NCBI GenBank assembly: GCA_963675295.2
Contig: CAXXKJ010000002.1
Coordinates: 3,328,001 to 3,392,000 of the forward strand
Length of the DNA stretch: 64,000 bases
Origin: a bacterium
GTDB taxonomy: Bacteria > Electryoneota > Electryoneia > Electryoneales > Electryoneaceae
Reading direction: 5' to 3'
Of the stretch, positions 34,114 to 49,591 are shown one piece after another (positions within the stretch are counted from its first letter, which is position 1; each line of letters opens with the position of its first letter). The translations under genes and the position numbers were made by a program. The notes beneath the pieces are model-generated. The model had not been told where the DNA came from. It ran no database searches and was given only the letters and a program-made list of their open reading frames with translations.

Positions 34114-34121
34114 GCTGCTCC

Positions 34122-35809: not shown

Positions 35810-35826
35810 TTCGACCTCCAGTTAAA

Positions 35827-37155
35827 CTATTGTTGTGAACAAAAACCGATTATTATACTTATAAAAGTAAATAGTAAAATTATTACAAATATTGCCGTTG
35901 CTCTACCATCAATATCCTTTTCCCTATCAACATTAAGATGGTCTCGTGCTGGAGGAAACTTCAAACTTACTGAGTGATTTAGATATTCTTTTGCTAATTC
36001 TCTTTCTTCTTGCGCCTCAAGTAGTCTTCCATACAAATAGGATGCCTGTTGTCCTCGTACTTTCAATAGCTTATGCACACCATTCATTATTTCCTTTTCA
36101 CTCTTATCTAGTAGCTGGCGACAAGGTTCTATAACATATTCTTTACTGAAATATTGTCTGTATTCTCCATTTTCCATTTCATCCACTAGTTCTCTTAGTC
36201 TTAACTGTACGGCATTTTCATATTCCTTTTGTTGACTCTCAAGAAGTGGTTCGGGCAGGTTACTACCTGAAAAACTGCTTTCATGAGCCGCTTCCTGGTA
36301 CGAAATAGTTTCTGATAAATCAGTGTCACTCAACAACTTGAAAAGTACGTCACAGTTTTGAATCCGTTGATCCAAATCGCGGGCTAGTGCATGATGGAGA
36401 ATCTCGACCAAAGATTCCGGGATATACGGATAAAACTCCCGTGGGTCAGGGATTGGATCTTCGAGGCAGGATTTCATGAACACAAACTCAGAGGTCTCGT
36501 CCTCATCGAAAGGCGCCCGTCCAGCGAGCATCACGTAAAGTGTCATACCGAGCGCGTAGATGTCAGCCCGATGATCGACCTGCTTACCGAGAATTTGTTC
36601 GGGTGCCATGTAAACTGGTGTGCCGAGGATGGTTCCTGTGCGCGTCAGCTTTGACTGGCCAGCTACCTTTGCGATCCCGAAATCGGTGACCTTAACAACG
36701 TTGTCCGTGGTGACGAGGACATTGGACGGCTTCAGATCACGATGCACCACGCCCTTGGCGTGTGCGTAATTGACTGCCTGCAGAAGCTGATTAAAAAGTC
36801 GGAGCGCTCGTTCGTGGGGGATCGGACCAACCTCTCGTCCGATCATTTGCTCGAGGTTACGACCCTCGACGTACTCCATAACCAACGCGATACCACCTTC
36901 AAACTGAATGAAATCGTGCACTTGGACGATATTCGGGTGGGTAAGTCTGGCCATGGTTTTGGCTTCACGAGCCATTCGTTCGCGCAACTCTGCAGCTCGC
37001 GCCGGCTGGTCAACCATAACTTTGAGGGCTGTCGGACGATCCAGCACCTCATGCTCAGCCAGATAGACCACACCCATTCCACCCCGTCCCAATTCTCGAA
37101 TTACTTTATAATTCGGAATGATCGGTAGCGGTATCTTGACTGCTTGTTTATCCAT
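35827..37155 (-). CDS. Ser/Thr protein kinase 6 (kinase + TPR/Sel1-like helix pair + C-terminal TM)
   Basis: GRGGMGVVY, HRDLKPSN, DFG, APE; hydrophobic C-terminus. Confidence 0.93.
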   Translation of the reverse strand: MDKQAVKIPLPIIPNYKVIRELGRGGMGVVYLAEHEVLDRPTALKVMVDQPARAAELRERMAREAKTMARLTHPNIVQVHDFIQFEGGIALVMEYVEGRNLEQMIGREVGPIPHERALRLFNQLLQAVNYAHAKGVVHRDLKPSNVLVTTDNVVKVTDFGIAKVAGQSKLTRTGTILGTPVYMAPEQILGKQVDHRADIYALGMTLYVMLAGRAPFDEDETSEFVFMKSCLEDPIPDPREFYPYIPESLVEILHHALARDLDQRIQNCDVLFKLLSDTDLSETISYQEAAHESSFSGSNLPEPLLESQQKEYENAVQLRLRELVDEMENGEYRQYFSKEYVIEPCRQLLDKSEKEIMNGVHKLLKVRGQQASYLYGRLLEAQEERELAKEYLNHSVSLKFPPARDHLNVDREKDIDGRATAIFVIILLFTFISIIIGFCSQQ

Positions 37156-37174
37156 CTATGTTACTCTGCATGAG

Positions 37175-38758
37175 TCAATCCAGTTTGGATTTACGTATAA
37201 GCCTAAAACCAACGTAAGGAAAATGAAAGCCTGGATAGAATTTTATTCTTGCCGCTGGCGAACATATTGCATGCCCATGCATATATGACCCTCCTCTCAC
37301 AGCCTTCACTCTGGATTTATCAGATCTAGCTTTCTTATCATCACCTTCTATCAATAGTTCATACCTCTTGTACCAATTATCACACCATTCCGCTACATTA
37401 CCTAACATATCATAAAGGCCCCATGGGTTAGGCTTTTTTGTACCAACATTATGTATTTTATTATCGCTGTTTGATTCATACCATGCATATAGATCCAATT
37501 TATCTTCTCTATCACCCCACCAATATCTTTGGTGATCTTTAGAAGCACGACATGCATACTCCCACTGAATTTCAGTTGGCAATGAATAGTAATATTCATC
37601 ATCTTCTAAATTAAGTTTATTTATAAAATCAATAATATCAAACCAAGTCACTTTTACAACAGGATAATCCTCATGATATATCTGTTCCTTATTTTTAGAA
37701 TTAAATGAATACCACATTTTATTAGTAACCAGTGTATTCATAATTTCAAATGCTGATACATAGGTTTCGTGACGAGGTTTTTCTGATTCTAAAGCATATT
37801 GATCTTCATCTGAGGAACCCATCATAAATTTTCCACCAGGTAGTGTAACGAAATTCATGTTCTCTAGTGGGCCCTCTTTCGTCACAAACCTATTATTACT
37901 GCTTACAGATATCAGATTATTCTTTTTTTCGGTTCTATCAATAATATTTACTAGATTATCACAGCTTTCGATCCTTGTTTCTATATTCCTATCTATTGTA
38001 GAGTAAATAATATCGACCATACGTTGAGGTATGTGCGGATAAAACTCTCTTGGATCGCGTATTGGATCCTCAAGACATGATTTCATTATCAGAAACTCGG
38101 ACGTTTCCTCATCATCGAATGGGGGTCTTCCAGCCAGCATCACATACAAAGTCATCCCCAACGCATAAATATCAGCCCGGTGATCGACCTCTTTCGCAAG
38201 AATCTGTTCTGGTGCCATGTAGATAGGCGAGCCAAGAACGGTTCCGGTTCGAGTCAGTTTTGAATCACCTACGGCTTTAGCAATACCGAAATCCGTCACC
38301 TTCACCCGGCCATCCTTGGCAACGAGGATGTTCGCCGGCTTAAGGTCCCTGTGTACTATGCCTTTCTCATGGGCGGCACCCACTGCACCAAGAATCTGCC
38401 TGAAAAGAGGCAACGCACGTTCATGGGGAATTGGGCCAACCTCTCGGCCAATCATCTCCTCCAGGGTACGGCCTTCCACGTATTCCATCACCAAGGCAAC
38501 ATTTTTACCATGATCGACTAGGTCAAAGATCCGAACGATGTTTTCGTGGTCGAGTGTCGCCATGACCCGTGCTTCGCGAAGAAAACGTTCGCGAATGGTC
38601 GCATCCCTCGCATACTGCTCGAGCATGAACTTGATGGCGACCTTACGCTGCAAAACCTCGTGTTCTGCCAGGTACACCACACCCATACCACCCCGACCGA
38701 TTTCCCTGATCAGGCGGTAATTCGGGATCACTGGGTACTGTCCATCAACCTCTATCAC
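37175..38758 (-). CDS. Ser/Thr protein kinase 5 (kinase + FGE-sulfatase/SUMF1 domain, no TM seen)
   Basis: Kinase motifs; FMMGS, LPTEIQWEYACRA, NPWGLYDMLGNVAEWC, RGGS, GFRL. Confidence 0.93.
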   Translation of the reverse strand: MIEVDGQYPVIPNYRLIREIGRGGMGVVYLAEHEVLQRKVAIKFMLEQYARDATIRERFLREARVMATLDHENIVRIFDLVDHGKNVALVMEYVEGRTLEEMIGREVGPIPHERALPLFRQILGAVGAAHEKGIVHRDLKPANILVAKDGRVKVTDFGIAKAVGDSKLTRTGTVLGSPIYMAPEQILAKEVDHRADIYALGMTLYVMLAGRPPFDDEETSEFLIMKSCLEDPIRDPREFYPHIPQRMVDIIYSTIDRNIETRIESCDNLVNIIDRTEKKNNLISVSSNNRFVTKEGPLENMNFVTLPGGKFMMGSSDEDQYALESEKPRHETYVSAFEIMNTLVTNKMWYSFNSKNKEQIYHEDYPVVKVTWFDIIDFINKLNLEDDEYYYSLPTEIQWEYACRASKDHQRYWWGDREDKLDLYAWYESNSDNKIHNVGTKKPNPWGLYDMLGNVAEWCDNWYKRYELLIEGDDKKARSDKSRVKAVRGGSYMHGHAICSPAARIKFYPGFHFPYVGFRLIRKSKLD

Positions 38759-38800
38759 TCTTACTCACTTTCAAACGGTTTCAGGAAACTCAAATACCGA

Positions 38801-38840
38801 GACAACGTTTGATGCTGAAGGATATAGGGCAAACGTTGTC
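38801..38840. other. 11-bp-stem hairpin at the end of kinase 4
   Basis: gacaacgtttg (38801-38811) / caaacgttgtc (38830-38840); no U-tract. Confidence 0.4.
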
Positions 38841-40179
38841 AAACACCACTAATTATTATTGCTAGTATAACAAGAATAACAATAGCTATAGTTATATACA
38901 TAATCTTGCTTTCTTCGGTGAAGACAAATTTTGCTTTTATATACTCTCTTGCATGACTAAACCCATCACTATACGAAATTTTATAATATTTTTGTGCTTG
39001 ATTTGGTAATCCTAACTTTTCCAATATTCTTGCTCTTAACCAAATGAATTCAGCGTCGCCTTCATTAATTTTATTGTCTATCTCTATAACTAAATCTAAA
39101 TATTCAAATGTTAACATAAAGTCAATTTCATTCATAAACTTTTGAGAAAATACGGCGGGATTCGCACTATGTATTTCATTATGTATTATATCTAATATCT
39201 CTCTGTAGACACTAAATCCACTATGATATTTTGTAGATTGCTTTGGAAATTGGTTTTTAAGTGATGTTCCTTTAGTCTTGCTATTTGATTTCTCCACGAT
39301 TAAATTCGAGTTGTCATCATATTCGTTATCTGGCTTATCAAGCATTATAGATATTCTATCACAATCACCATACCTTTTTCCTCTGTCTCTTTCCAACATT
39401 TTCATTGTTATTTTTACTAAACCTTTAGGTATATAGGGATAAAAATCGCGAGGATCAGGAATCGGATCCTCCAAACAGGCCTTCATGAAGGCAAATTCAG
39501 ATAGATCCTCATCATCAAATGGAGGCCTTCCAGCCAGCATCACGTAGAGCGTCATCCCCAGGGAGTAGATATCCGCCCGGTGATCGACTGCCCTACCGAG
39601 GATCTGTTCAGGTGGCATGTAGACCGGCGTTCCCAGCATGGTTCCGGTACGAGTCAGCTTGGACTGCCCAGCCACCTTAGCTATTCCAAAATCCGTCACC
39701 TTGATTTGATTGTCCTTTGTCACCAGGACATTGGATGGTTTCAGATCTCTGTGCACTATACCCCGCTTGTGAGCGTAGGTCACAGCGCCGAGGAGTTGTC
39801 TGAAAAGCGGCAGTGCACGTTCATACGGTATTGGCCCAACCTCTCTCCCGATCATCTGTTCAAGGTCGCGTCCCTCAACATATTCCAGCACGAGCGCGAT
39901 TCCGCCGGGGAACTGAAGATGATCCAGCACTTTTACGATATTCGGATGGTCCAGCTCTGACATCGTGCGAGCTTCACGAGCCATGCGTTCGCGAAGCTCG
40001 GAGTTCTTCGCAAACTGATCCAACATCACTTTGAGGGCGATCTGACGGTTCAGCACTTCGTGCTCCGCCAGATATACCGCCCCCATACCACCTCGGCCGA
40101 TTTCCCTGAGGATCCGATAATTCGGCACAATCGGCAGTGGGATTTGGATATCACCTTTCTGAGTTTGAGATTTGCTCAC
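38839..40179 (-). CDS. Ser/Thr protein kinase 4 (kinase + TPR/Sel1-like helix pair + C-terminal TM)
   Basis: GRGGMGAVY, HRDLKPSN, DFG, PPE; tail IMYITIAIVILVILAIII. Confidence 0.93.
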   Translation of the reverse strand: MSKSQTQKGDIQIPLPIVPNYRILREIGRGGMGAVYLAEHEVLNRQIALKVMLDQFAKNSELRERMAREARTMSELDHPNIVKVLDHLQFPGGIALVLEYVEGRDLEQMIGREVGPIPYERALPLFRQLLGAVTYAHKRGIVHRDLKPSNVLVTKDNQIKVTDFGIAKVAGQSKLTRTGTMLGTPVYMPPEQILGRAVDHRADIYSLGMTLYVMLAGRPPFDDEDLSEFAFMKACLEDPIPDPRDFYPYIPKGLVKITMKMLERDRGKRYGDCDRISIMLDKPDNEYDDNSNLIVEKSNSKTKGTSLKNQFPKQSTKYHSGFSVYREILDIIHNEIHSANPAVFSQKFMNEIDFMLTFEYLDLVIEIDNKINEGDAEFIWLRARILEKLGLPNQAQKYYKISYSDGFSHAREYIKAKFVFTEESKIMYITIAIVILVILAIIISGV

Positions 40180-40253
40180 TTCAGATTCCTTTAGTATCCA
40201 TCCATCAAAGATTCAGCTGACCCGTCTTTGCTTACGTGGGTGAAAGCTATGGA

Positions 40254-43013
40254 TCAACGGTTCATTGGCACTCGAACGAGTCGAAATCCCAAGTAGAATT
40301 TCTTTTCTGAAGGATCCTCAAATCGACGACTCGCTGATCGACAAGAACTTGCCATAAATGCCCAATACCCACCGCGTGTAGATCGATATTTGCCACTGAT
40401 GGATCCACGTGGATTCGATACCGGGCTTGATTTGTAGTATTGATCGCTGTAGTAGTCCTGGCACCATTCTTGAACGTTTCCATGCATGTCGTACAACCCC
40501 CATTTGTTGGGAAGTTTGCTCGCTATTGCATGTGTAGTGCCTTGGCTATTGCTGTTATACCATGCATATGCAGGTAACCTGGAATAATCTAGGTCATCGC
40601 CCCAGCTGAAGCGGCTTCCATCTTCTCCAGCCCGGCAAGCATACTCCCATTCCGCCTCTGTCGGTAGGCGATAGGTATAGCTTGGATCATATTTGTTGAG
40701 TTCTTGAATGAATTCCTGAACATCATACCATGATACTTTTTCTACAGGCAGTCTATTTCCTTTGAAATGAGATGGATTATTCCTCATTAGAGTAGCCCAC
40801 GTTTCTTGTGTGACTTCTGTGGACATAATTTCAAATGATGAAACATGCACTTGATGTCGAGGATATTCATCGTATTTTGAATCCTTTTCATTGGCTAATG
40901 CTCCCATCGTGAAGTTTCCTTCGGGAATCTGGATAAAGGTTATTCCTAGCTTGGGCATACGTATTTTTGATGGAACACGAATTTCTTCTGGTAAATTTCG
41001 TTCTGTCTTATCCTCGTGTTTCGACGTGAGGTCCGCAGTTTTGGATTCGATCGAAACACGAGCAACCCGGAATCCCCATAGTACTGCGCTAAAGCTGGGA
41101 TAACTTGCGTATCGAACACTAGGTGAACATGCCTCTCTCGTACTTGTCCAATTCCCACCCCTTACAACTCTATATAGACCATTCAGAGGACCACTTGGAT
41201 CAATCTCATTACCTTTGGAATAATAATCTACGTCATACCAGTCATGGACCCACTCCCCAACATTTCCATGCATATCATATAGACCCCACGGATTAGAGGG
41301 TTTTATTGAAACAGCGTGTGTACCTATTGAATTACTATTATCGTAATACCATTCATAGTAGCTTAAATCATTTCCTGCTGCGTCGTTTCCCCACCAGAAT
41401 ATGGATTCTGCATTACCAGTTCTGCACGCATATTCCCATTCAGCCTCAGTAGGAAGACGATAATGCATCTGCGGATCACGAATATTGAGCCAGTCGATAA
41501 ATGCTATTACATCATTCCAGCTTACACAGACGACTGGGTATTGATCGGATTGAAGAAATCCTGGATGATTCCAATTCACTTCTGAATCGATTGCCCATTC
41601 TGTGCCATTCCATGCATAGGAACCAGAATTCTTCTCAGCGTCAGTATCATAACCAGTTGCATCAACAAACTCACCGAATTGGGATACTGTTACTTCTGTC
41701 GACATTAGCTCAAAGGCTGAGACTGTTACCTTATGACGCGGATACGAATCTCTTTTTAGCCCAGTCTCAATGGGCAATGCACCCATTATGTAGCTACCAG
41801 CTGGGATCTGAACGAAAGTCATACCAGCAATTGGTCCTCGCGAACTGGAATCAGTTTCTAGTTCAATTGATTTATCATTGTCTTCGTTTATTATTTCTCT
41901 AGAATTAATATCACTGCTTAGATTGCCATTATAGTTGTGTATAACCATAATTATAAAAAACACTCCAATTATTGCAATAATGAAAAGAAATGTCTTGACT
42001 CTTTTTTCCGATTCTTGCTGAGATTCGATTTCCTTTTTCCTTTGATTCTCTTCTAGCTGTCGAACTTTTTCTTGCCTGCGTTTTTCCTCTTCCTCATACT
42101 GTTTTTTCGAATGTTCCATCTGTTTCTCGTACTCTTCCTGTTCCCTCCTCTCTTCTTCAGCAGCCTCCATTTCCACTTGGTTGGTAAGACGATCTATTTC
42201 CTTAAGCTCATCTACACTTTTTAGAGATACTTTAAATGAAGCACAGTCTAGAAGACGTTTTTTCAAATCTCGCTCAAGGGCAGAGAATACTACTTTCACA
42301 ACTGGTTCAGGGATATATGGGTAATATTCTCGTGGGTCCGGGATTGTATCCTCAAGACATGCCTTCATAAATGCGAATTCAGAAGTTTCTTCTTCGTTAA
42401 ATGGTGTCCAGCCTGCCAGCATGACGTATAGCGTCATTCCCAGGGAATAGATGTCTGTCTGGTGATTAATCGGTTTCCCAAGAATCTGCTCAGGCGCCAT
42501 GTAGAGCGGTGTGCCTAACATTGTACCAGTTTTAGTCAGTTTCGACTGGCCTGCGGCTTTGGCGATACCAAAATCCGTAACCTTGACGATATTATCTTTC
42601 GATACCAGGATGTTTGATGGTTTCAGATCTCGATGAATCACTCCCTTGTCATGGGCAAAACCCACAGCAGCCAAGATTTGTTCGAATAGTGGCAGGGCTC
42701 TTTCATAGGGGATCGGTCCCATCTCGCGCCCGATCATCTGTTCCAGAGTCCGGCCTTCTACATATTCCATTACGAGAGCCGAACCACCTTCAAACTGGAT
42801 GTAATCGTGGATCTTTACGATGTTCGGATGGTCAAGCTGGGCAAGGGTTTGAGCCTCACGCTCCATTCGATAGCGTAAGTCAGTATTTCGAGTGTAGAGA
42901 TCGAGCATCACCTTTAGAGCATACCGACGTTTCAGCACCTCATGCTCTGCAAGGTAAACGATTCCCATTCCACCGCGACCTAACTCTTCTAAGATCTTGT
43001 AGCCAGGTACCAA
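40254..43013 (-). CDS. Ser/Thr protein kinase 3 (kinase + coiled coil + TM + two FGE-sulfatase domains)
   Basis: Kinase motifs; E/K/Q-rich coil; TM FLFIIAIIGVFFIIMVI; two RLPTEAEWEYACR / GLYDMHGNV.EW units. Confidence 0.93.
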   Translation of the reverse strand: MVPGYKILEELGRGGMGIVYLAEHEVLKRRYALKVMLDLYTRNTDLRYRMEREAQTLAQLDHPNIVKIHDYIQFEGGSALVMEYVEGRTLEQMIGREMGPIPYERALPLFEQILAAVGFAHDKGVIHRDLKPSNILVSKDNIVKVTDFGIAKAAGQSKLTKTGTMLGTPLYMAPEQILGKPINHQTDIYSLGMTLYVMLAGWTPFNEEETSEFAFMKACLEDTIPDPREYYPYIPEPVVKVVFSALERDLKKRLLDCASFKVSLKSVDELKEIDRLTNQVEMEAAEEERREQEEYEKQMEHSKKQYEEEEKRRQEKVRQLEENQRKKEIESQQESEKRVKTFLFIIAIIGVFFIIMVIHNYNGNLSSDINSREIINEDNDKSIELETDSSSRGPIAGMTFVQIPAGSYIMGALPIETGLKRDSYPRHKVTVSAFELMSTEVTVSQFGEFVDATGYDTDAEKNSGSYAWNGTEWAIDSEVNWNHPGFLQSDQYPVVCVSWNDVIAFIDWLNIRDPQMHYRLPTEAEWEYACRTGNAESIFWWGNDAAGNDLSYYEWYYDNSNSIGTHAVSIKPSNPWGLYDMHGNVGEWVHDWYDVDYYSKGNEIDPSGPLNGLYRVVRGGNWTSTREACSPSVRYASYPSFSAVLWGFRVARVSIESKTADLTSKHEDKTERNLPEEIRVPSKIRMPKLGITFIQIPEGNFTMGALANEKDSKYDEYPRHQVHVSSFEIMSTEVTQETWATLMRNNPSHFKGNRLPVEKVSWYDVQEFIQELNKYDPSYTYRLPTEAEWEYACRAGEDGSRFSWGDDLDYSRLPAYAWYNSNSQGTTHAIASKLPNKWGLYDMHGNVQEWCQDYYSDQYYKSSPVSNPRGSISGKYRSTRGGYWAFMASSCRSASRRFEDPSEKKFYLGFRLVRVPMNR

Positions 43014-43077
43014 GTATCCAGACCCTCCAATTGATTGGACAAATCTATACTCAAGTTATTTCAAAGTTGCACAAGCT

Positions 43078-44187
43078 CTACCATAGAGATAAGAAAAAAA
43101 CGGGGACAGCGAACATTGCAATAATCGATACTACTATTGCTATTGCTAAAACAAGAGAAGTAAAGCTTTCACCAGAAGATGATTTCTCAAGCACGACATC
43201 GTATTCCTCACTTAAACCATGTTTTACATCTGACTTATTTTCAATCGATCCATAAGACGTGGTAATATATTCATTATCTTTATTTTCATTATTTATATCA
43301 TTTTTATTTAATATACTAACATTATACTCTTCATTCATTATAATATTATCATTCTTTTGCGTCTGGTATATTGCATAAATTATATCTATACATTTATTAT
43401 ATCTTAGCTTTATCGATCTTTCAAGTGCTTTATTGATTGCATGAATAAGATGATCCGGGATGTATGGATAAAACGTCCTTGGATCGGGAATCTCATCTTC
43501 CATGCAGGATTTCAATAGTACAAACTCCGATGTTTCATCTTCATCAAACGGCGCGCGTCCAGCCAGCATCACGTACAACGTCATTCCCAAGGCATAAATG
43601 TCCGCTCTGTGGTCCACAGCTTTACCGAGGATCTGTTCCGGCGCCATGTAAATGGGTGTTCCGAGGACAGTCCCTGTGCGCGTAAGCTTGGATGCTCCCG
43701 CCGCCTTGGCAATTCCGAAGTCCGTCACCTTGATCCGATTGTCTTTCGTGACCAGCACATTCGCTGGCTTCAGGTCACGGTGAATGATGCCTTGCTCATG
43801 CGCATACCCAACCGCATCCAACAATTGACGAAACAGGGGCAATGCCCGTTCGTGCGGAATTGGACCAACCTCGCGCCCAATCATTTGCTCGAGGCTGCGA
43901 CCATCAACGTACTCCATCACGAACGCGACATCATCCTCACGCTCAATCAGGTCGTGCACCTTGACTATGTTGGGATGATCCATTGTTGCCATCATGCGGG
44001 CTTCACGCAGAAATCTCTCGCGTACCGCTTCATCGCGGGCATGCTGTTCAAGAATAACTTTGATGGCTACTTGCCGATGTAGTCCCTTGTGATTTCCAAG
44101 GTAGACCACACCCATCCCGCCACGACCAATTTCTCGTTCGACCGTGTAGTTGGCAAACTCAGGTAGTCTTGTCGATGCAGGACTCAT
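43078..44187 (-). CDS. Ser/Thr protein kinase 2 (kinase + Asn-rich linker + C-terminal TM)
   Basis: GRGGMGVVY, HRDLKPAN, DFG, APE; overlaps the PP2C stop. Confidence 0.93.
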   Translation of the reverse strand: MSPASTRLPEFANYTVEREIGRGGMGVVYLGNHKGLHRQVAIKVILEQHARDEAVRERFLREARMMATMDHPNIVKVHDLIEREDDVAFVMEYVDGRSLEQMIGREVGPIPHERALPLFRQLLDAVGYAHEQGIIHRDLKPANVLVTKDNRIKVTDFGIAKAAGASKLTRTGTVLGTPIYMAPEQILGKAVDHRADIYALGMTLYVMLAGRAPFDEDETSEFVLLKSCMEDEIPDPRTFYPYIPDHLIHAINKALERSIKLRYNKCIDIIYAIYQTQKNDNIIMNEEYNVSILNKNDINNENKDNEYITTSYGSIENKSDVKHGLSEEYDVVLEKSSSGESFTSLVLAIAIVVSIIAMFAVPVFFLSLW

Positions 44188-45323
44188 TCTTCAGACACGC
44201 TCTCTCTTCCGGGCTCAGATTCGGAGATTAAAGATGAACGACCAGAGTCTACTATGGTAACGCTCACTGCAATTAATGGTGGATGGAACATGGTATCTTT
44301 AGGAAATGCTTGGTCAATACTCTGTCGCGGATCGATTTCTTCAACAGTCAGGTCATGGGTGGGTTGCGAAAAAAAGGATCTGAGGAATTTCCCGGGAACT
44401 GTGTTAAGTAAAAGTAATGCTGCGACTACTGCCGCCAGGAGAATGATCACGGTACCGCCGTATAAAGCCACCCTGGGCAAGTGTTTGACTGGGGGTACAT
44501 CTATTTGTCGCGTTTGACGGTCTGCTCCATCCGATCGGAGCAAAGGTTTTCGTGGCTTCGGACCAATATGGCAGTCAACAATTTGCACGGTGGCGTTGTC
44601 GTCTCCACTTCGCTCATTCGCAAGTTTTACCAATCTTTCAGCCAGCACCTGAGGTGTTTGATCGATAGATTGCTGTTCCATATCGATTGCAGGAATTGGA
44701 CCAGAGATCCCATCCGTACACAGGATGAAGCGGTCGCCTTTGCAAACATCTACAGTTTCAATCTCGGGTTCAATTTCCTCGCGTACACCCAACGCCCGGG
44801 TAATCACATTTTTCTGTGGATGGTCTTCTGCTTCCTTCTCTGTGATCAATCCCCGGCGTTGCATCTCGCTAACCATGGAATGATCCTGGGTCAGCTGTTC
44901 GATATGATCCAATCGAATTCGATATAGCCGGCTGTCGCCAATGTGTACACGCCAGGCGGTGGGCTTTTTTGTTGTACTTACGAGGAGCAGGACACACGTT
45001 GTGCCCATTCCTTCCAGTTCGGAGTTCTGATCAATTTCCTGTCGGATAGCGCGGTTCGCACTTGCAAGTGCCCGCTTCAGTACTTTGGGGGCGTTCCTAT
45101 CGACAGATTCCGTGACAACTTTGGCAATTGTCTCCACGGCCAGTCGGCTGGCACGTTTACCACCAACATGCCCACCCATGCCATCACATACGATGAAAAG
45201 TGAACCCAATTCCGTTTCAAAAAAGCCATAGTAGTCTTCATTTTCGCTACGAACGGTCCCCACATCGGTAAAATTCCCGAACTCAATCGGCGACCGTTTA
45301 CCGAACGTTAGCAGCGGGATCAT
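44184..45323 (-). CDS. PP2C/PrpC-family Ser/Thr phosphatase with TM helix
   Basis: DVG.VRSENED, VCDGMGGH.GG, HIGDSRLY, LCTDG, DDNATV; TM TVIILLAAVVAALLLL. Confidence 0.93.
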   Translation of the reverse strand: MIPLLTFGKRSPIEFGNFTDVGTVRSENEDYYGFFETELGSLFIVCDGMGGHVGGKRASRLAVETIAKVVTESVDRNAPKVLKRALASANRAIRQEIDQNSELEGMGTTCVLLLVSTTKKPTAWRVHIGDSRLYRIRLDHIEQLTQDHSMVSEMQRRGLITEKEAEDHPQKNVITRALGVREEIEPEIETVDVCKGDRFILCTDGISGPIPAIDMEQQSIDQTPQVLAERLVKLANERSGDDNATVQIVDCHIGPKPRKPLLRSDGADRQTRQIDVPPVKHLPRVALYGGTVIILLAAVVAALLLLNTVPGKFLRSFFSQPTHDLTVEEIDPRQSIDQAFPKDTMFHPPLIAVSVTIVDSGRSSLISESEPGRESVSEE

Positions 45324-46924
45324 TCTTGCACCCCTTGGAACTGAAGTTCACAGCGTCCCATCTGAATGCGGTCACCATTGTTCAGCAGGACGGTATGAAT
45401 TTGTTCTCCGTTCACTCTTGTGCCGTTTGTAGAATCGTTGTCTGTCAGTTGGAACTGCCCACCGACAAATCGCAGTGTAGCGTGATGTCCAGAAACCGTC
45501 GGTTCCTCAAGCACAATGCGATTGTCGTCCGCAGCCCCGATCGTCACTTCCGCAGCGGTCACATCAAACTCAGATCCCGCCTGCGAGCCGCTGCTGATGA
45601 GAAAGCTTCCACTTTTATATACCTGTAAGGCCGGTTGGCCAATGATCGTTTTCCGTGACATCGATTGCGCGGGAGCCTGACCTGCAACCGAAGTGTGAGA
45701 TGGGATTCCCGTGTCGCGGCTTGATCCTGCTTCAACTTGATCGGACTCGGGAACAGGTTCAGCTTTCAACTTGGCAGCTTCCGCTTCCTGCTGTTTTCGT
45801 TTTTCTTCCAGCCGATGCTCCTCTTCCTGGCGTCGGCGCTCTTCTTCAAGCAATCTTTGTTCTTCTTCCCGGCGTTTCGCCCGATTCCGGGAGCTGACTA
45901 GAGCAATGACTACAACGACAATAACCACAACAGCACCGCCAGCGGCGACAGGAATGAAGGGGAATTCAGAATCGCTCCTTCCTCCGTGTCCGTCATCCGC
46001 TGTCACACGCGTTGAAACTGCCATGGATAGTACTGTCTGACCTGCAAAATTGCCCCGACTGGCAGCAATTGTGTAGCTGTGGGACCGGCCATCTGCCAAC
46101 TCGGACGGCGGATTGAAGGATAGCAAATATTGGCTCTTCAGGTAATCCAGCGAAAGTACAAACTGTTCGCTAAGATCTTCGGATTCACGCGCGCGGTGAT
46201 ATTGTCCATTTGTACGGTCACTCATCGCCTCCAGATTCCGCAAGAATCGTTCATCGATGTTTGTAAATCCTACCGTAAAAATCGGAACATCATTTTCGTT
46301 CGCTTTTTCAATGCAATTATCCAGGGAGTAAGCATTCGCCATACTTTCGTTCTTTCCATCTGAAAGCACCAGAACTAGCCGTCGATCAGGAATTCCTGTG
46401 CTTTCATCAAGGAAGGTGAGACTTCGGTAAACTCCATAAAACAACTCTGTGGTCGCACCTCTGGCCTGGATGGTCCCCGTTCGCTCTTTCAAATACGAAC
46501 GGTTCATGGAAAAGTCGGATACGATTTCCACCTCATCGCCAAAGGTGATAATGGCTACCCGGTCCTGGGGACGTAGCTGATCGATGTATTCATTCACTGC
46601 TTCTTTAGCATCTGCCATTGGATCTCCGGACATGGACAGAGATGCATCAAGGCAAAGGACAACCGCTACACCCTGGTCGGACTCATAGAAGGACTGCACG
46701 CGCGGTGAAATCGATGAATACCCTTCCGGGATCACATTGAAATGTGTCGAATCCAATCCCAGCACTCCCTCTCGGTTCGCATCGAGGACCGTTACCGCAG
46801 CAATCACAGCCGAGGTATGGGTTGAATCGATCTCGTCCAGTCTGACAGTCCAAGGCTCGACCGCGTTGGCAGTAGTAGCTAGGAACAGGATCATCATGAT
46901 CATCGCAAGATGATTGCTTTTCAT
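45320..46924 (-). CDS. Signal peptide + vWA + TM + coiled coil + FHA protein
   Basis: LDASLSMSG MIDAS and LSDG; Val-rich TM; C-terminal FHA IGA..DN..VSGHHA..D.DSTNGT.VNG. Confidence 0.88.
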   Translation of the reverse strand: MKSNHLAMIMMILFLATTANAVEPWTVRLDEIDSTHTSAVIAAVTVLDANREGVLGLDSTHFNVIPEGYSSISPRVQSFYESDQGVAVVLCLDASLSMSGDPMADAKEAVNEYIDQLRPQDRVAIITFGDEVEIVSDFSMNRSYLKERTGTIQARGATTELFYGVYRSLTFLDESTGIPDRRLVLVLSDGKNESMANAYSLDNCIEKANENDVPIFTVGFTNIDERFLRNLEAMSDRTNGQYHRARESEDLSEQFVLSLDYLKSQYLLSFNPPSELADGRSHSYTIAASRGNFAGQTVLSMAVSTRVTADDGHGGRSDSEFPFIPVAAGGAVVVIVVVVIALVSSRNRAKRREEEQRLLEEERRRQEEEHRLEEKRKQQEAEAAKLKAEPVPESDQVEAGSSRDTGIPSHTSVAGQAPAQSMSRKTIIGQPALQVYKSGSFLISSGSQAGSEFDVTAAEVTIGAADDNRIVLEEPTVSGHHATLRFVGGQFQLTDNDSTNGTRVNGEQIHTVLLNNGDRIQMGRCELQFQGVQE

Positions 46925-47550
46925 GACGCCTCCACTGTGTCGATAAGACGTAATTTCAAGTGTGTCCGGCCGATCAAGATGTTGTCGCCGTCTTGCAACA
47001 CACGTGGGACATCTCCTACGTCTTCACCATTTACAAACGTACCGTTTGTCGAGAAGTTGTCACGCAGTTTTAAGACACCTCCTCGGTACAACAATTCAGC
47101 ATGAAAGCCCGAGACCATACCGTCTGGCAGCTGGATTTCCACGTCATTACCACTGCCGATACGAGTTTTCCCAACATGTAGCCGGTAGTCTTGGCCATTC
47201 GGATTCCAGTCAAAGCTCACCAACCAGCCGATCAACTTTCCTTGAACGCCCGCCTTCGCAGCACCGCGTTGTTCCTCGGAAGCACCTGCAGGTTCTGGTT
47301 CGAGAATAACCGTCTTTCTGGCACCACCACTACCACCAGGTCTTGCTGTCTTCTCGACCGGCGCATCGAGCACGGTCTTTCGCTGCCCCGTTGGTTTATC
47401 GGCTTGTGGCCCCTTTGACTTGTCGGGTGTGTGCTTCACCGGTTTATCAAGAACCGTTTTGGCGGACGGATCGGTTTTAGGACAAAACGGGCATTCATCA
47501 AGATCTGCACGGTATCGATGTCCGTTCGGGCAAACTTTTGTTGCTTCCAT
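46921..47550 (-). CDS. Zn-ribbon + Thr-repeat linker + FHA protein
   Basis: CPNGH..Y....CPFCP; repeated KTV(L/I); C-terminal FHA IGS..VSGFHA..STNGTFVNG. Confidence 0.88.
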   Translation of the reverse strand: MEATKVCPNGHRYRADLDECPFCPKTDPSAKTVLDKPVKHTPDKSKGPQADKPTGQRKTVLDAPVEKTARPGGSGGARKTVILEPEPAGASEEQRGAAKAGVQGKLIGWLVSFDWNPNGQDYRLHVGKTRIGSGNDVEIQLPDGMVSGFHAELLYRGGVLKLRDNFSTNGTFVNGEDVGDVPRVLQDGDNILIGRTHLKLRLIDTVEAS

Positions 47551-47568
47551 CAGCCAGCCACCCTTGCT

Positions 47569-48966
47569 TTAAGTTTTAAACTCTTTACCGTAGGTGTTAC
47601 GTACACGCTTTGATTTCTTGAAATATAACCACCAAATAGTAAAATATATGATTGCATGAAAAATTGATTTTATAGTCTCAAACTGATATTCATGAAAAAT
47701 ATTACTTGATCCTGATGTTATTATTAAAGTAAGTAAATCACTACTGACCCATAATATTAAATTTCCCTTTAAAAAGGTACGTGCAGTAGATCTGCCAGTT
47801 TGTTTTCCCCTCCAAACAATAATTCCTGTAAAGAATCCCCAAATATTCAATATTAACGTGGATAATATATCTATTGACATAACGATATCTAATAGAGGGT
47901 CGATGTCAAACAAATCACCGTAGATAGAAATTGACCATAACGTTGCAATTGGAGTTAAAATTGTTAATGAAACACAAAAGAGTAGCAACCAACCACCCAC
48001 ACCGCGAGGATTGTTATCTTCTTCAATTGATGAATTTTCGGTAGTATCGTTAGTTAAGGAATCCACTTCAGGTGGTCTATTCATTTGACTCGAATCGTGA
48101 TGATCTGATTCATATCGAGTAGATGGACGCACGAAATCAACCTGACCGTTTAGAAAACTCTTGAATTGACTAGAAGAGGCAAACCGTAGTCCCGGATCCT
48201 TTTCCGTTGCCAATCGAATCGCATCGACTACTTGGTCGGGAATGTGAGGGTAATACTCTCTTGGATCAGGTAGATCGTGCTTCACGATCCAATCCATGAT
48301 CTTGTATTCGCTGGAAGTTGTCGCGTCGAACGGCACGCGACCGGTAACCATCTCGTATAGGGTTATCCCGAGCGAATAAATGTCGCTCCGTTCTGTCGCC
48401 TCAATTCCTTTCACCTGCTCCGGCGACATGTACCAAAGTGTTCCAAGCTTGGTCCCGGTCCGGGTCAGCCCTTGCTGCCCGATGATTTTTGCGATGCCCA
48501 GGTCGGTAACCTTTACAACGTCACTAGGTGTGACAATGGCATTGGAAGGCTTTATGTCTCGGTGAATTATACCGCGGGAATGTAGGTAATCGAAGGCGTC
48601 AAGAAGCTGGAAAAAGATCGGCAGGGCACGTTCGGATACAATCGGTCCAACTTCGCGACCGATAATTTGATCGAGGCTGCGCCCCTCGATGAATTCCATC
48701 ACCAGCGCAAGACGATCTTCCGTTTCGATGTAATCAAGGAGTGTGACGATGTTGGGATGACTGAGTGAGGCTTGTAGTCGGGCTTCGCGGGAAAAGCGTT
48801 CCCGCAATTGAGGATCTCGACTGTGATGTTCGTGGAGGATTTTTACTGCGACGGTCCGATCAAGCCGAGTGTCAGTCGCTCTCCAGACAACTCCCATCCC
48901 GCCTTCGCCGATGATCTCATGTAACTCATAGTGCAGCAAGCGCACCGCAACCTCCCTGGCATCCAC
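47569..48966 (-). CDS. Ser/Thr protein kinase 1 (kinase + DUF2569-like 4-TM domain)
   Basis: GEGGMGVVW, HRDIKPSN, DLG, SPE; GVGGWLLLF...W.LYF.KSKRVRNT. Confidence 0.9.
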   Translation of the reverse strand: MDAREVAVRLLHYELHEIIGEGGMGVVWRATDTRLDRTVAVKILHEHHSRDPQLRERFSREARLQASLSHPNIVTLLDYIETEDRLALVMEFIEGRSLDQIIGREVGPIVSERALPIFFQLLDAFDYLHSRGIIHRDIKPSNAIVTPSDVVKVTDLGIAKIIGQQGLTRTGTKLGTLWYMSPEQVKGIEATERSDIYSLGITLYEMVTGRVPFDATTSSEYKIMDWIVKHDLPDPREYYPHIPDQVVDAIRLATEKDPGLRFASSSQFKSFLNGQVDFVRPSTRYESDHHDSSQMNRPPEVDSLTNDTTENSSIEEDNNPRGVGGWLLLFCVSLTILTPIATLWSISIYGDLFDIDPLLDIVMSIDILSTLILNIWGFFTGIIVWRGKQTGRSTARTFLKGNLILWVSSDLLTLIITSGSSNIFHEYQFETIKSIFHAIIYFTIWWLYFKKSKRVRNTYGKEFKT

Positions 48967-49546: not shown

Positions 49547-49591
49547 ACTTTTAAGCCCAAGGCCGTGGGTTCGAGTCCCACCATCCTCACA
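49543..49591 (+). other. 3' fragment of a tRNA-Lys(TTT)-like gene: island att duplication
   Basis: Anticodon arm tggga-cttttaa-gccca (one mismatch), T-arm gtggg-ttcgagt-cccac, acceptor 3' strand catcctca; no 5' half upstream; GC rises to the right. Confidence 0.8.

What the first reader, a model, noticed from the sequence alone, without database searches (positions are those of the whole stretch)
35827..48966. Polymorphic array of six paralogous Ser/Thr kinases: constant kinase domain, variable C-terminal modules
Seen: six co-oriented Hanks kinases, five of them consecutive (35827-44187). They share a private signature, (Q/E)(M/I)IGRE(V/M)GPI..ERAL..F, LT(R/K)TGT.LG and DPR.(F/Y)YP(Y/H)IP, and retain the core catalytic motifs (DLG, SPE and PPE variants in two copies). 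The tails differ: DUF2569-like 4-TM; bare TM anchor; coil-TM-2xFGE; TPR-like-TM (twice); soluble FGE. DNA differences between kinase domains look largely synonymous, so these are not fresh duplicates. Inference: a fixed signalling output joined to exchangeable sensors, the logic of polymorphic conflict loci or an immune-receptor repertoire. I do not recognise this as a named system.
Basis: partly seen in the sequence, partly recalled or inferred. Interest (0 to 1): 0.9.

Follow-up and report, generated by a model that had tools for sequence, protein, structure and literature searches.

The report
Six-kinase envelope signalling operon on island
A mobile genomic island in an uncultured bacterium carries one operon with six related protein kinases, their phosphatase and all of the cell's phosphothreonine-reader domains, most likely a membrane alarm circuit that switches on an exporter; it is an unusual expansion of a known kind of signalling module, not a new kind of system.

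Summary
Six co-oriented, catalytically intact Hanks kinases lie on the minus strand, five of them in tandem (35827-44187), with similar kinase domains and unlike tails. They sit in one tight 12-gene operon (31810-48966) with Zn-ribbon-FHA, signal peptide-vWA-TM-FHA, membrane PP2C, periplasmic M48 protease, LEA_2 lipoprotein and an FHA-FHA-ABC exporter. This operon holds 6 of the genome's 7 kinases and all 4 of its FHA domains. It is the right-hand cargo of a ~50.9 kb low-GC island with an integrase, inserted at tRNA-Lys and bounded by a 43-bp repeat, which also carries type I R-M and McrBC.

Only 3 of 79 genomes of the phylum carry the cassette, and none of the three same-genus relatives searched does. 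The PP2C-to-M48 slot holds 5, 2 or 1 kinases with different tails.

The paralogues are old. Synonymous sites are saturated, and K2-K5 each have their own orthologue elsewhere. There is no recombination or DGR signature. The motif signature is not private.

Best reading: a self-contained Ser/Thr phospho-relay for the envelope. It recombines the domain toolkit of the T6SS threonine-phosphorylation pathway with an Rv1747/PknF-like FHA-gated exporter. It is a new variant of a known kind. A defence role is plausible but unshown.

The parts
47569..48966 (-). K1: Hanks kinase (DLG, SPE variants) + linker + DUF2569 multi-TM tail; first gene of the operon
   Evidence: Pfam Pkinase 3e-55, DUF2569 4.3e-11; TM segments 323-385; orthologue of G009 pre-FHA kinase (100/99)
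46921..47550 (-). Zn-ribbon - disordered Thr-rich linker - FHA protein (209 aa)
   Evidence: Pfam FHA 1.4e-16; CPNGH..CPFCP ribbon, invariant T32 and T59 and a KTVI motif whose Val81 is invariant (Thr80 in 3 of 4 homologues)
45320..46924 (-). Signal peptide - vWA (MIDAS DASLS intact) - TM - coiled linker - FHA (534 aa)
   Evidence: Pfam VWA 1.6e-16, FHA 2.5e-18; TM 326-344; MIDAS; family of at least 1050 representatives at E<=1e-30
44184..45323 (-). PP2C Ser/Thr phosphatase with one C-terminal TM
   Evidence: Pfam PP2C_2 1.3e-17; NCBIfam Stp1/IreP 243 bits over cut-off 230; TM 291-309
43078..44187 (-). K2: Hanks kinase + low-complexity linker + C-terminal TM anchor
   Evidence: orthologue P0004 with the same tail
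40254..43013 (-). K3: Hanks kinase - charged coil - TM - two periplasmic FGE-sulfatase-like domains
   Evidence: Pfam FGE-sulfatase 4.2e-105, 2 stretches; TM 341-359; closest kinase P0006 (79-81% over the kinase domain) stops after the TM, no FGE
38839..40179 (-). K4: Hanks kinase (PPE variant) + helical tail of no known family + C-terminal TM anchor
   Evidence: closest kinase P0021 (80-84% over the aligned part of the kinase domain) carries a soluble FGE tail instead
37175..38758 (-). K5: soluble Hanks kinase + FGE-sulfatase-like domain, no TM
   Evidence: Pfam FGE-sulfatase 7.6e-45; no TM; orthologue P0003 with the same architecture (56% full length)
35827..37155 (-). K6: Hanks kinase + helical bundle tail + C-terminal TM anchor
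   Evidence: AF2 model helices plus TM
35003..35809 (-). M48 Zn-metalloprotease with N-terminal signal/TM (HEMTH intact), periplasmic
   Evidence: Pfam Peptidase_M48 2.2e-28; HExxH; N-terminal hydrophobic segment
34122..35006 (-). LEA_2 (WHy) domain protein with lipoprotein-like N-terminus (…TMISC)
   Evidence: Pfam LEA_2 5.7e-12; N-terminus
31810..34113 (-). FHA-FHA-ABC(ATPase)-ABC2 membrane: half-transporter exporter of Rv1747 architecture; last conserved gene of the cassette
   Evidence: Pfam FHA x2 5e-39, ABC_tran 2.9e-30, ABC2_membrane 5.9e-22; Walker A and signature motif intact
49548..49590 (+). attR: 43-bp perfect copy of the 3' part of tRNA-Lys(ttt), which lies 1281 nt left of the window; right border of the ~50.9 kb island
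   Evidence: (1 match, 0 expected)
27120..31750 (-). Context, not part of the conserved cassette: McrB-like AAA_5 GTPase with a 540-aa N-terminal extension of no Pfam family (28487-31750) and McrC (27120-28490), 59 nt downstream of the ABC gene
   Evidence: absent at this position in G009 and G016, where a further kinase follows the ABC gene

Best explanation
Window 31810-48966 (minus strand) is one horizontally acquired operon. It encodes a self-contained Ser/Thr phospho-signalling system for the cell envelope.

Shown:
- Six active-looking Hanks kinases, one membrane PP2C and the only four FHA domains of the genome are co-transcribed-looking neighbours.
- The vWA domain, the M48 protease, the LEA_2 protein and K3's two FGE-like domains carry export signals or lie beyond a TM segment.
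- The five tandem kinases are old paralogues.

Inferred mechanism:
- The kinases are held at the inner membrane by unlike tails: tail anchors, a DUF2569 4-TM domain, or a TM plus periplasmic lectin-fold FGE-like domains. One kinase (K5) is soluble.
- Different envelope or cytoplasmic cues activate them, and they autophosphorylate on the LTRTGT loop.
- They then phosphorylate threonines in the disordered linkers of the operon's own FHA proteins.
- Binding of phosphothreonine by FHA domains switches on the FHA-FHA-ABC exporter, as PknF does for Rv1747. It also assembles the vWA-TM-FHA and Zn-ribbon-FHA proteins at the membrane.
- The PP2C resets the system.

The domain set (kinase, periplasmic vWA, periplasmic FGE-like, lipoprotein, ABC, FHA, PP2C) is that of the Pseudomonas T6SS membrane-damage pathway, joined in different combinations. 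The likely output is envelope remodelling or export in response to an attack on the envelope.
For: Operon:
- Gaps between the 12 genes are -4 to 80 nt, all on one strand.

Self-containment:
- 6 of the 7 Pkinase matches in the 4.8 Mb genome lie here.
- 4 of the 4 FHA matches lie here.

Intact motifs:
- Kinase catalytic residues are invariant in all six.
- MIDAS DxSxS, M48 HExxH, ABC Walker A and signature, and PP2C DGMGG are present.

Topology:
- Single TM segments and an N-terminal signal-like segment are found.

Conserved candidate phospho-acceptor threonines:
- T32 and T59 are invariant in the Zn-FHA linker across 4 homologues.
- In the KTVI motif Val81 is invariant and Thr80 is kept in 3 of 4.

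Conserved cassette:
- G009 and G016 carry Zn-FHA, vWA-TM-FHA, PP2C, kinase(s), M48, LEA_2, FHA-FHA-ABC and a further kinase in the same order.
- Identity to the window proteins is 25-56%.

Mobile origin:
- The island is low-GC (39.6-52.4% in 2.5 kb bins, host 58%).
- It runs from tRNA-Lys plus a Phage_integrase gene (E 3e-31) to a 43-bp repeat at 49548-49590.
- Only 3 of 79 genomes of the phylum carry the kinase clade.
- The same 3 of 79 carry the full-length vWA-TM-FHA protein.
- The three same-genus genomes have only the housekeeping kinase.

Age of the array:
- Synonymous sites are saturated.
- Orthologue pairs are K2-P0004 100/99, K3-P0006 100/99, K4-P0021 99/94 and K5-P0003 100/96.

Precedents read in papers:
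- TagR's FGE-sulfatase domain is modelled (AlphaFold3, loop mutants abolish dueling) to bind the periplasmic domain of PpkA; the authors could not conclusively detect the complex (PMC13713981, passages).
- That PpkA domain is a vWA domain (PMC3224232 and PMC1262709, passages).
- Rv1747 is a two-FHA ABC transporter in an operon with PknF and is positively regulated by it (PMC3138270 and PMC3908365, abstracts in the search listing).
- A vWA/kinase/phosphatase/FHA threat-sensing pathway exists in Actinobacteria (PMC13622651, passages).
Against: - No phosphorylation, binding or export was measured here. The substrate of the exporter is unknown.
- Five of the six tails are cytoplasmic or mere anchors. 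Input sensing through the tails is therefore conjecture.
- The cassette has no T6SS partner (no TssC in the genome) and no MoxR, so neither the TPP nor the Esr wiring applies literally.
- Island neighbours (type I R-M, McrBC) and the strong PADLOC PD-T4-6 kinase hits fit a phage-defence role as well as an envelope-stress role.
- The vWA-TM-FHA architecture is widespread (1050 representatives at E<=1e-30). Its contexts elsewhere could not be inspected.
Confidence: 0.68

Rival explanations
1. An anti-phage defence system of the kinase type (TerY-P-like vWA/PP2C/kinase triad, PD-T4-6 or Stk2-like). Infection activates one of the kinases, and mass phosphorylation or exporter activity aborts infection. 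The paralogues widen the range of phage triggers.
For: - The operon is cargo of an integrase-bearing island packed with defence genes: type I R-M, T5orf172, DUF4238, SNF2 and DEAD helicases, and McrBC 59 nt downstream.
- The kinases hit PADLOC PD-T4-6 and mad6 models at up to 298 bits, and the PP2C hits candidate system PDC-M21C.
- TerY-P triads are recurrently embedded in McrBC-type CoCoNuT operons, and TerY-P-like modules defend on their own (PMC11090510, passages).
- Distribution is patchy (3 of 79).
Against: - The PADLOC kinase models are generic. The same proteins hit the PknB-type NCBIfam model at about 300 bits.
- vWA-TM-FHA, Zn-FHA, M48 and LEA_2 hit no PADLOC model.
- The vWA is exported, unlike TerY.
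- No window kinase carries the Zn-ribbon or OB tail of TerY-P.
- No nuclease, NADase or pore-forming effector is in the conserved cassette.
- McrBC adjacency is not conserved in G009 or G016.
Confidence: 0.22
2. One reading: a polymorphic conflict locus or immune-receptor-like repertoire. One constant signalling head is recombined with exchangeable sensor modules, and array size and tails turn over quickly between strains.
For: - The PP2C-to-M48 slot holds 5 kinases in the window, 2 in G016 and 1 in G009, with different tails: TM, 2xFGE, helical, FGE / Sel1, none / FGE.
- Kinases closest to K3 and K4 carry other tails: P0006 lacks the FGE domains, and P0021 has FGE instead of helical plus TM.
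- Heads are 75-87% identical against tails at 24-38% or not homologous.
- The wider clade carries FGE, SHOCT, Sel1, Zn-ribbon, PEGA, pentapeptide, RDD, WD40 and other tails.
Against: - Paralogues differ at 32-38% of nucleotides with saturated synonymous sites.
- Repeats between them are only the diverged kinase domains (60-79%).
- There are no orphan tail cassettes, no toxin or immunity genes, and no DGR. The only RT of the genome is about 123 kb beyond the window's right end, and there is no template copy of the FGE ends.
- K2 and K5 keep the same tail as their orthologues.
- An exclusive K2-K6 clade is rejected, so the set is old and inherited.
- Diverse C-terminal domains are a general property of bacterial Hanks kinases (PMC1262709, passages).
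- A second sample of the same study holds an identical locus.
Confidence: 0.15
3. Ordinary housekeeping growth, division or cell-wall signalling of the PknB/Stp type that merely happens to be duplicated.
For: - The best NCBIfam hits are PknB_PASTA_kin (below cut-off) and Stp1/IreP PP2C (above cut-off).
Against: - There are no PASTA domains.
- The genome has a separate conserved kinase (C2:4279094, about 38% identity) whose orthologue is the one found in 36 of the 38 other searched genomes that gave any match.
- The cassette is absent from the three same-genus genomes searched and lies on a low-GC mobile island.
Confidence: 0.03

Closest known systems
Threonine phosphorylation pathway of the Pseudomonas aeruginosa H1-T6SS (PpkA, PppA, Fha1, TagQ, TagR, TagS/T)
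   Same: It has the same domain toolkit: Hanks kinase, PP2C, FHA reader, periplasmic vWA, periplasmic FGE-sulfatase-like domain, lipoprotein and ABC transporter. It senses membrane damage (PMC13713981, PMC3224232 and PMC6082577, passages).
   Different: The domains are joined differently. Here FGE is fused to a kinase and vWA is fused to an FHA protein. There are six kinases instead of one. The ABC protein itself carries the FHA domains. No T6SS is present (no TssC). M48 and LEA_2 are added.
Rv1747 / PknF of Mycobacterium tuberculosis
   Same: It is an ABC exporter with two N-terminal FHA domains, encoded in an operon with a Hanks kinase that activates it through linker threonines (PMC3138270, PMC3908365 and PMC8339232, abstracts in the listing).
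   Different: That system is a two-gene chromosomal operon in an actinobacterium. Here the pair is embedded in a 12-gene island-borne cassette with five extra kinases, a PP2C and two further FHA proteins.
TerY-P triad (vWA, PP2C, Ser/Thr kinase), alone or inside CoCoNuT-type McrBC operons
   Same: It is a vWA + PP2C + kinase gene triad associated with restriction systems, including McrBC. TerY-P-like modules defend against phage (PMC11090510, passages).
   Different: The TerY vWA is cytoplasmic and the kinase carries a Zn-ribbon or OB fold. Here the vWA is exported and fused to FHA, and the kinases carry TM, FGE or helical tails. No PADLOC model matched the vWA protein.
Esr threat-sensing pathway of oral Actinobacteria (preprint, PMC13622651)
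   Same: It uses a vWA protein, a kinase/phosphatase pair and an FHA output protein phosphorylated on a linker threonine. Some of its FHA outputs carry zinc fingers, and the sensing part is variable.
   Different: Esr needs MoxR and a surface beta-propeller sensor and is linked to Esx secretion. None of these is in this cassette.
Deinococcus radiodurans DRA0331-0334 operon (vWA, STPK, FHA, PP2C; bioRxiv 10.64898/2026.01.23.701218, abstract in the listing only)
   Same: It has the same four domain families in one operon.
   Different: It has a single kinase, is linked by its authors to DNA-damage sensing, and has no ABC, M48 or LEA_2 genes. I did not read the body of the preprint.

Membership tests
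T6SS threonine phosphorylation pathway (PpkA/PppA/Fha/TagQRST) | Hanks kinase whose own periplasmic domain is vWA | tested here: not met
   No kinase has a vWA domain. The vWA sits on the FHA protein 45320-46924.
T6SS threonine phosphorylation pathway (PpkA/PppA/Fha/TagQRST) | Genetic linkage to T6SS structural genes | tested here: not met
   There is no VipB/TssC match in the genome, which is 92.8% complete.
T6SS threonine phosphorylation pathway (PpkA/PppA/Fha/TagQRST) | PP2C phosphatase and FHA substrate in the same cluster; periplasmic FGE-like activator | tested here: met
   PP2C and three FHA proteins are present. The FGE-like domains lie beyond K3's TM.
Rv1747/PknF-type FHA-gated ABC exporter | Two N-terminal FHA domains fused to an ABC ATPase and ABC-2 permease, with a Hanks kinase in the operon | tested here: met
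   Two FHA stretches, ABC_tran and ABC2_membrane are found. Kinases lie upstream in the same strand run.
Rv1747/PknF-type FHA-gated ABC exporter | Kinase phosphorylates linker threonines and thereby activates transport | not testable with these tools
   This needs biochemistry.
TerY-P triad | TerY-like cytoplasmic vWA protein | tested here: not met
   The protein has a signal-like N-terminus and a TM at 326-344. It has no PADLOC hit. Its best NCBIfam domain is TIGR03436, not TerY.
TerY-P triad | Kinase fused C-terminally to a Zn ribbon or OB fold | tested here: not met
   No such domain is found in K1-K6. Zn-ribbon tails do occur in database relatives such as P0010 and P0018.
Esr / MoxR-vWA ternary conflict systems | MoxR AAA+ ATPase paired with the vWA protein | tested here: not met
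   No MoxR-like gene is in the operon. The only AAA_5 protein nearby is the McrB homologue.
DGR-diversified FGE/C-type-lectin variable proteins | Nearby reverse transcriptase and a template repeat matching the C-terminal FGE region | tested here: not met
   The single RVT_1 match lies at C2:3515028, about 123 kb beyond the window's right end. There is no second copy of the FGE ends in the genome or in the locus.
Polymorphic toxin / conflict locus | Constant N-terminal part, variable C-terminal toxin, cognate immunity genes and orphan cassettes | tested here: not met
   There are no toxin or immunity domains. There are no near-identical repeats or orphan tails.
PD-T4-6 single-gene kinase defence | Match to the PADLOC PD-T4-6 models as a stand-alone kinase | tested here: inconclusive
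   Hits reach 298 bits, but the models cover only the generic kinase domain and these genes are not stand-alone.
Catalytic formylglycine-generating enzyme | Pair of catalytic cysteines (CxxxxC after the RGG motif; motif recalled from memory, not from a call) | tested here: not met
   Each of the three FGE-like domains has a single Cys after RGG. This suggests a binding domain, not an enzyme.

The most novel reading that the evidence does not exclude
The cassette is a new class of mobile threat-sensing system. It would be a repertoire of membrane-tethered kinase paralogues, each tuned by its tail to a different insult (phage adsorption or injection, contact-dependent attack, epibionts, membrane-active compounds). 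All would converge through the operon's own FHA readers on an exporter and a periplasmic protease/vWA module that remodel the envelope. Bacteria would trade it on tRNA-integrated defence islands, and its kinase number would expand and contract with the local threat spectrum.
Probability: 0.2. Interest if true: 0.8.

Novelty: new variant of a known kind. Interest (0 to 1): 0.45.

Why it matters
Bacterial Ser/Thr kinase systems are usually scattered through a genome, and their substrates are hard to find. Here a mobile island delivers a closed circuit. It holds six of the host's seven kinases, a PP2C phosphatase (the genome was not searched for others) and every FHA reader the host has, next to a plausible output (an FHA-gated exporter).

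That makes kinase-to-substrate wiring, signal integration by paralogous kinases and the role of non-catalytic FGE-like and vWA ectodomains directly testable in one transferable 17 kb piece of DNA.

If the output proves defensive, it would add a membrane-level, phosphorylation-based system to the catalogue of defence-island cargo. It would also link the T6SS damage-sensing pathway, Rv1747/PknF and the recent Esr pathway as variations on one theme.

Tried and rejected
DGR diversification of the FGE-like domains.
- Rejected. The only RVT_1 hit lies about 123 kb beyond the window's right end.
- No template-like copy of the FGE ends was found.

Binding of K3's periplasmic FGE region to the vWA ectodomain.
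- Complex prediction gave no usable answer at first, then 'no answer', score 0.00.
- This is no evidence either way.

K6 tail fold.
- The single-sequence AF2 model has pLDDT 67.
- Foldseek against the PDB gave 0 matches at E<=0.001.
- Atlas TPR leads scored 0.82, below the useful range.
- So 'TPR-like' is left open.

Wider comparative genomics.
- The genome-contig scan with the vWA-FHA alignment returned only the two loci already found.
- The metagenome scan with a 52-aa kinase segment returned 80 loci. By blastp only L016, L021 and L026 showed pieces of the cassette. The rest were generic kinase or PP2C neighbourhoods.
- A plasmid tblastn with the vWA-FHA protein found 25 records, none covering 80% or more. 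Two were inspected.
- The contigs behind P0003/P0122 (both listed with longest contig 12,698 bp, probably one contig, unverified), P0124, P0006, P0021 and P0004 could not be fetched. How many kinases those loci hold is therefore unknown.

Expression and population variation.
- No RNA holder was listed.
- The four runs belong to one study.
- X1 carries the locus without differences. X4 carries identical short low-depth contigs. This gave no information on polymorphism.
- High depth over 40.6-42.0 kb in X4 comes from other organisms' FGE domains.

Promoter and terminator scan.
- Counts equal those of shuffles (38 against 33.5, 17 against 17.3). It was uninformative.

dN/dS for kinase against tail.
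- This was not computable between paralogues, because dS is saturated in 12 of 15 pairs and the tails are not homologous.
- It was replaced by head-against-tail identity in orthologue pairs.

AU tests.
- Both groups were named after a tree had been seen, which weakens them.
- The second test (K1 lineage plus K2-K6 lineage as one clade) gave p 0.026, which is marginal.

Supplementary files of papers were not opened. Those of PMC11090510 and PMC7159879 list operon contexts that might already include cassettes like this one.

No literature search found this exact gene set. The 5-term search 'FGE-sulfatase, Pkinase, FHA, vWA, PP2C' at 4 or more terms returned 0 papers. The search 'vWA, FHA, PP2C, kinase, conflict systems' at 4 or more terms returned 10 papers, and none of the 9 listed, by title and abstract, describes it.

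Full report
WHAT IS THERE

All genes of the finding lie on the minus strand. In order of transcription they are:
- K1 (47569-48966)
- a Zn-ribbon-FHA protein (46921-47550)
- a signal peptide-vWA-TM-FHA protein (45320-46924)
- a PP2C phosphatase with a C-terminal TM (44184-45323)
- five tandem kinases: K2 (43078-44187), K3 (40254-43013), K4 (38839-40179), K5 (37175-38758) and K6 (35827-37155)
- a periplasmic M48 metalloprotease (35003-35809)
- a LEA_2 protein with a lipoprotein-like N-terminus (34122-35006)
- an FHA-FHA-ABC-ABC2 half-transporter (31810-34113)

These assignments rest. Gaps between neighbours are -4 to 80 nt.

All six kinases match Pkinase end to end (E 2.5e-53 to 3.1e-59). All keep every catalytic residue.

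The tails are:
- K1: DUF2569.
- K2: a bare TM anchor.
- K3: a charged coil, a TM and two FGE-sulfatase-like domains.
- K4 and K6: a helical region of no Pfam family plus a TM anchor.
- K5: a soluble FGE-like domain.

Each of the three FGE-like domains has one cysteine after the RGG motif. The catalytic enzyme has a pair; that motif is recalled, not from a call. They look like binding domains.

HOW ALIKE THE KINASES ARE

Kinase domains of K2-K6 are 64-76% identical in protein and 62-69% in DNA. K1 is 49-53% identical to the others in protein. Proportional synonymous difference is 0.73-0.86, saturated in 12 of 15 pairs. Non-synonymous difference is 0.16-0.36.

A SELF-CONTAINED CIRCUIT

The whole 4.8 Mb genome (92.8% complete) has 7 Pkinase matches, and 6 are here. 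It has 4 FHA matches, and all 4 are in this operon. The seventh kinase (C2:4279094) is the one whose orthologue appears in most relatives. No TssC was found. The phosphothreonine readers that these kinases can address are therefore the operon's own three FHA proteins.

The Zn-FHA protein keeps its CPNGH...CPxCP ribbon across four homologues. In its disordered linker T32 and T59 are invariant. In the KTVI motif Val81 is invariant and Thr80 is kept in 3 of 4. This is the usual layout of an FHA protein that is also a kinase substrate.

A MOBILE ISLAND

The window from its start to about 49,000 has 40-52% GC, against 58% for the genome.
- A tRNA-Lys(ttt) gene lies 1281 nt left of the window.
- A 364-aa Phage_integrase gene follows it (E 3e-31).
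- The last 43 nt of the tRNA are repeated perfectly at window 49548-49590.

The island is therefore about 50.9 kb, and the kinase operon is its right-hand end.

The rest of the island carries:
- DUF3987
- a type I R-M system with a T5orf172-CSD gene inside it
- DUF4238
- a DEAD/DUF559 helicase gene interrupted by an IS30-type transposase
- an SNF2 helicase
- a MerR regulator with a second vWA protein
- McrBC, 59 nt downstream of the ABC gene

The six kinase genes are lower in GC (42-46%) than the core genes (47-52%).

DISTRIBUTION

- A search with the K2 kinase domain found clade members (49-56% identity) in only 3 of 79 genomes of the phylum: G000, G009 and G016. G009 is in the same family but another genus. 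G016 is in another family.
- The three same-genus genomes have only the roughly 38% housekeeping kinase.
- The full-length vWA-TM-FHA protein is found in the same 3 of 79. Ten of 79 have some vWA match.

The cassette order in the other two genomes is as follows.
- G009, contig C168: kinase(DUF975) - Zn-FHA - vWA-TM-FHA - PP2C - kinase(FGE) - M48 - LEA_2, then the contig ends.
- G009, a second short contig: FHA-FHA-ABC - small ORF - kinase. Adjacency of the two contigs is inferred.
- G016: Zn-FHA (at the contig end) - vWA-TM-FHA - PP2C - kinase(Sel1) - kinase(no domain) - M48 - LEA_2 - MotA/ExbB-like (weak) - OmpA-like - Zn-ribbon-DUF2569 - FHA-FHA-ABC - kinase(Sel1).

Core proteins are 25-56% identical to the window's. 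The PP2C-to-M48 slot thus holds 5, 1 and 2 kinases. DUF2569 is a kinase tail in the window and a separate gene in G016.

DATABASE RELATIVES

With K2 as query, 162 proteins scored E<=1e-60 among 8000 scored candidates, and 120 were listed. Their precomputed Pfam tails include FGE-sulfatase, SHOCT, Sel1, Zn ribbons, PEGA, pentapeptide repeats, RDD and DUF975.

Of the 116 listed proteins that are not the window's own:
- 24 carry the IG[RK]E.GP. motif;
- 25 carry the DPR..[YF]P..P motif;
- 15 carry both;
- 3 carry all three motifs.

The word-indexed search with the vWA-TM-FHA protein found only 8 proteins at E<=1e-20. One of them, at 76% identity, is listed with the same longest-contig length (12,698 bp) as the K5 orthologue P0003.

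The exhaustive profile search gave a different picture. It found 1050 representatives at E<=1e-30.
- 116 of the 122 similarly sized ones among the best 150 have a central TM-like segment.
- 60 of the 61 scanned have both VWA and FHA.

That architecture is therefore a widespread, unnamed family. Its genomic contexts could not be inspected.

TREES

A careful tree of 43 kinase domains was built. Rows were chosen from the 74-row quick tree, leaving out three long-branch metagenome rows.
- K2-K6 together with P0003, P0004, P0006 and P0021 form one clade (100/99).
- Inside it each database protein pairs with one window kinase: K2-P0004 100/99, K3-P0006 100/99, K4-P0021 99/94 and K5-P0003 100/96.
- K6 has no partner in the data.
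- K1 pairs with G009's pre-FHA kinase (100/99).
- The two kinases that follow the ABC gene in G009 and G016 pair with each other (100/66).
- An exclusive K2-K6 clade is rejected (p-AU 6e-86).
- K1's lineage and the K2-K6 lineage as one clade is marginally rejected (p 0.026).
- Both groups were named after a tree had been seen.

There are therefore at least three positional kinase lineages. The five-fold expansion predates the split from the organisms that supplied the four database proteins.

Tail comparison of the pairs:
- P0003 has the same kinase+FGE architecture as K5 (56% over the full length).
- P0004 has the same linker+TM tail as K2.
- P0006 is 79-81% identical to K3 in the kinase domain but ends after the TM, without FGE domains.
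- P0021 is 80-84% identical to K4 in the kinase domain but carries a soluble FGE tail.
- Heads are 75-87% identical. Tails are 24-38% identical or not homologous.

COMPARISON WITH KNOWN SYSTEMS

PADLOC and NCBIfam.
- PADLOC models match only the generic kinase domain (PD-T4-6, mad6, up to 298 bits) and the PP2C (candidate PDC-M21C).
- vWA-TM-FHA, Zn-FHA, M48 and LEA_2 match nothing.
- NCBIfam places the PP2C in Stp1/IreP, above cut-off. The kinases score below cut-off for PknB-type.

T6SS threonine phosphorylation pathway. The Pseudomonas H1-T6SS pathway uses PpkA, PppA, Fha1, TagR, the lipoprotein TagQ and the TagS/T ABC transporter, and it responds to membrane damage (PMC13713981, PMC3224232, PMC1262709 and PMC6082577, passages).
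- PpkA is a kinase with an extracellular vWA domain.
- PppA is a PP2C.
- TagR is periplasmic. Its residues 127-359 are FGE-sulfatase-like, and AlphaFold3 modelling and loop-mutant imaging point to their binding PpkA's periplasmic domain; the authors could not conclusively detect the complex.
- The window's cassette holds the same domains in other combinations.

Rv1747/PknF. Rv1747 is a two-FHA ABC transporter in an operon with PknF, which activates it (PMC3138270, PMC3908365 and PMC8339232, abstracts in the listing).

TerY-P. vWA/PP2C/kinase triads are frequent inside McrBC-type CoCoNuT operons, and related modules defend against phage (PMC11090510, passages).

Esr. A 2026 preprint describes a pathway of vWA, MoxR, kinase, phosphatase and FHA output that senses epibionts (PMC13622651, passages).

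Deinococcus. Another 2026 preprint describes a vWA-STPK-FHA-PP2C operon (abstract only).

Older observations. Kinase+DUF323(FGE) fusions were noted in 2005 (PMC1262709). FGE-like ('FGS') domains are recurrent binding modules of conflict systems and DGR targets (PMC7159879, passages).

A DGR was looked for here and not found.

VERDICT

The most likely mechanism is a closed kinase/PP2C/FHA relay at the inner membrane. It gates an Rv1747-like exporter and assembles vWA- and Zn-ribbon-FHA proteins, with several differently tethered kinases as inputs.

This is a new variant of a known kind of system. It is notable for three things:
- its concentration of six kinases and all FHA domains in one mobile operon;
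- the reshuffled TPP toolkit;
- its place in a defence island.

The 'polymorphic array' reading is only partly supported. Heads are constant, tails are variable, and array size differs between loci. But the paralogues are ancient and inherited, most tails are not ectodomains, and no exchange mechanism is visible.

Whether the output is phage or competitor defence or general envelope-stress relief cannot be decided from sequence.

Noticed in passing
window 49548-49590; G000:C2:3326647-3327928 (L110:148-1429), just left of the window: The first roughly 49.5 kb of the window is a ~50.9 kb integrative island. It has tRNA-Lys(ttt) plus a Phage_integrase gene at the left and a perfect 43-bp copy of the tRNA 3' part at the right. 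GC is 40-52% against 58% for the host.
   Followed up: yes
window 3906-10452: A type I R-M system (HsdR 3906-6299, HsdM 7217-8689, HsdS 8686-10452) has a T5orf172 + cold-shock-domain gene (6318-7220) inserted between hsdR and hsdM.
   Followed up: partly
window 13146-17952: An IS30-type transposase gene (14808-15800: HTH_38 plus weak rve, 25.4 bits, below the 32.6-bit cut-off) lies between a DEAD/DUF559(REase-like) ORF (15901-17952) and a Helicase_C ORF (13146-14804). It looks like one helicase-nuclease gene split by the insertion.
   Followed up: no
window 27120-31750: The McrB homologue (1087 aa) has a 540-aa N-terminal extension with no Pfam match at E<=0.01. It is followed by McrC. The pair starts 59 nt after the ABC gene of the kinase operon, on the same strand.
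   Followed up: partly
window 22920-25764: A MerR-family regulator overlaps the start of a second, 709-aa vWA protein on the plus strand, between the SNF2 helicase and McrC. It has no PADLOC match.
   Followed up: no
window 35827-48966: All six kinase genes have lower GC (42-46%) than the interleaved core genes (47-52%). This is unexplained; the cause could be composition of the tails or a different history.
   Followed up: no
L011 (G016:C10) 3640-6624: The G016 version of the cassette has three extra genes between LEA_2 and the ABC gene: a MotA/ExbB-like protein (weak, 23.9 bits), an OmpA-like protein and a Zn-ribbon-DUF2569 protein. DUF2569 is thus a separate gene there and a kinase tail in the window.
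   Followed up: partly
L096 (Treponema succinifaciens plasmid NC_015386.1) 7604-13503: An FHA gene and a vWA gene (21% identical to the window's vWA part) sit directly upstream of contractile-injection-system genes (tail sheath, tube, VgrG/Pvc8). This is another FHA+vWA pairing with an envelope-crossing machine.
   Followed up: no
window 38758 and 40179 (starts of K5 and K4): Database copies of K5 and K4 are 24 and 31 residues shorter (503 and 415 aa), presumably from a downstream start call. Judged from the translations (not tested here), such a start would remove part of the glycine-rich loop. The GTG starts used here keep it and align with the other kinases.
   Followed up: partly
L021 (metagenome contig) 5216-14918: A distant variant of the theme runs: kinase with a WG_beta_rep tail, Zn-FHA-like protein, a 533-aa protein with a C-terminal FHA but no detected vWA, PP2C, a second diverged kinase and a further FHA protein.
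   Followed up: partly
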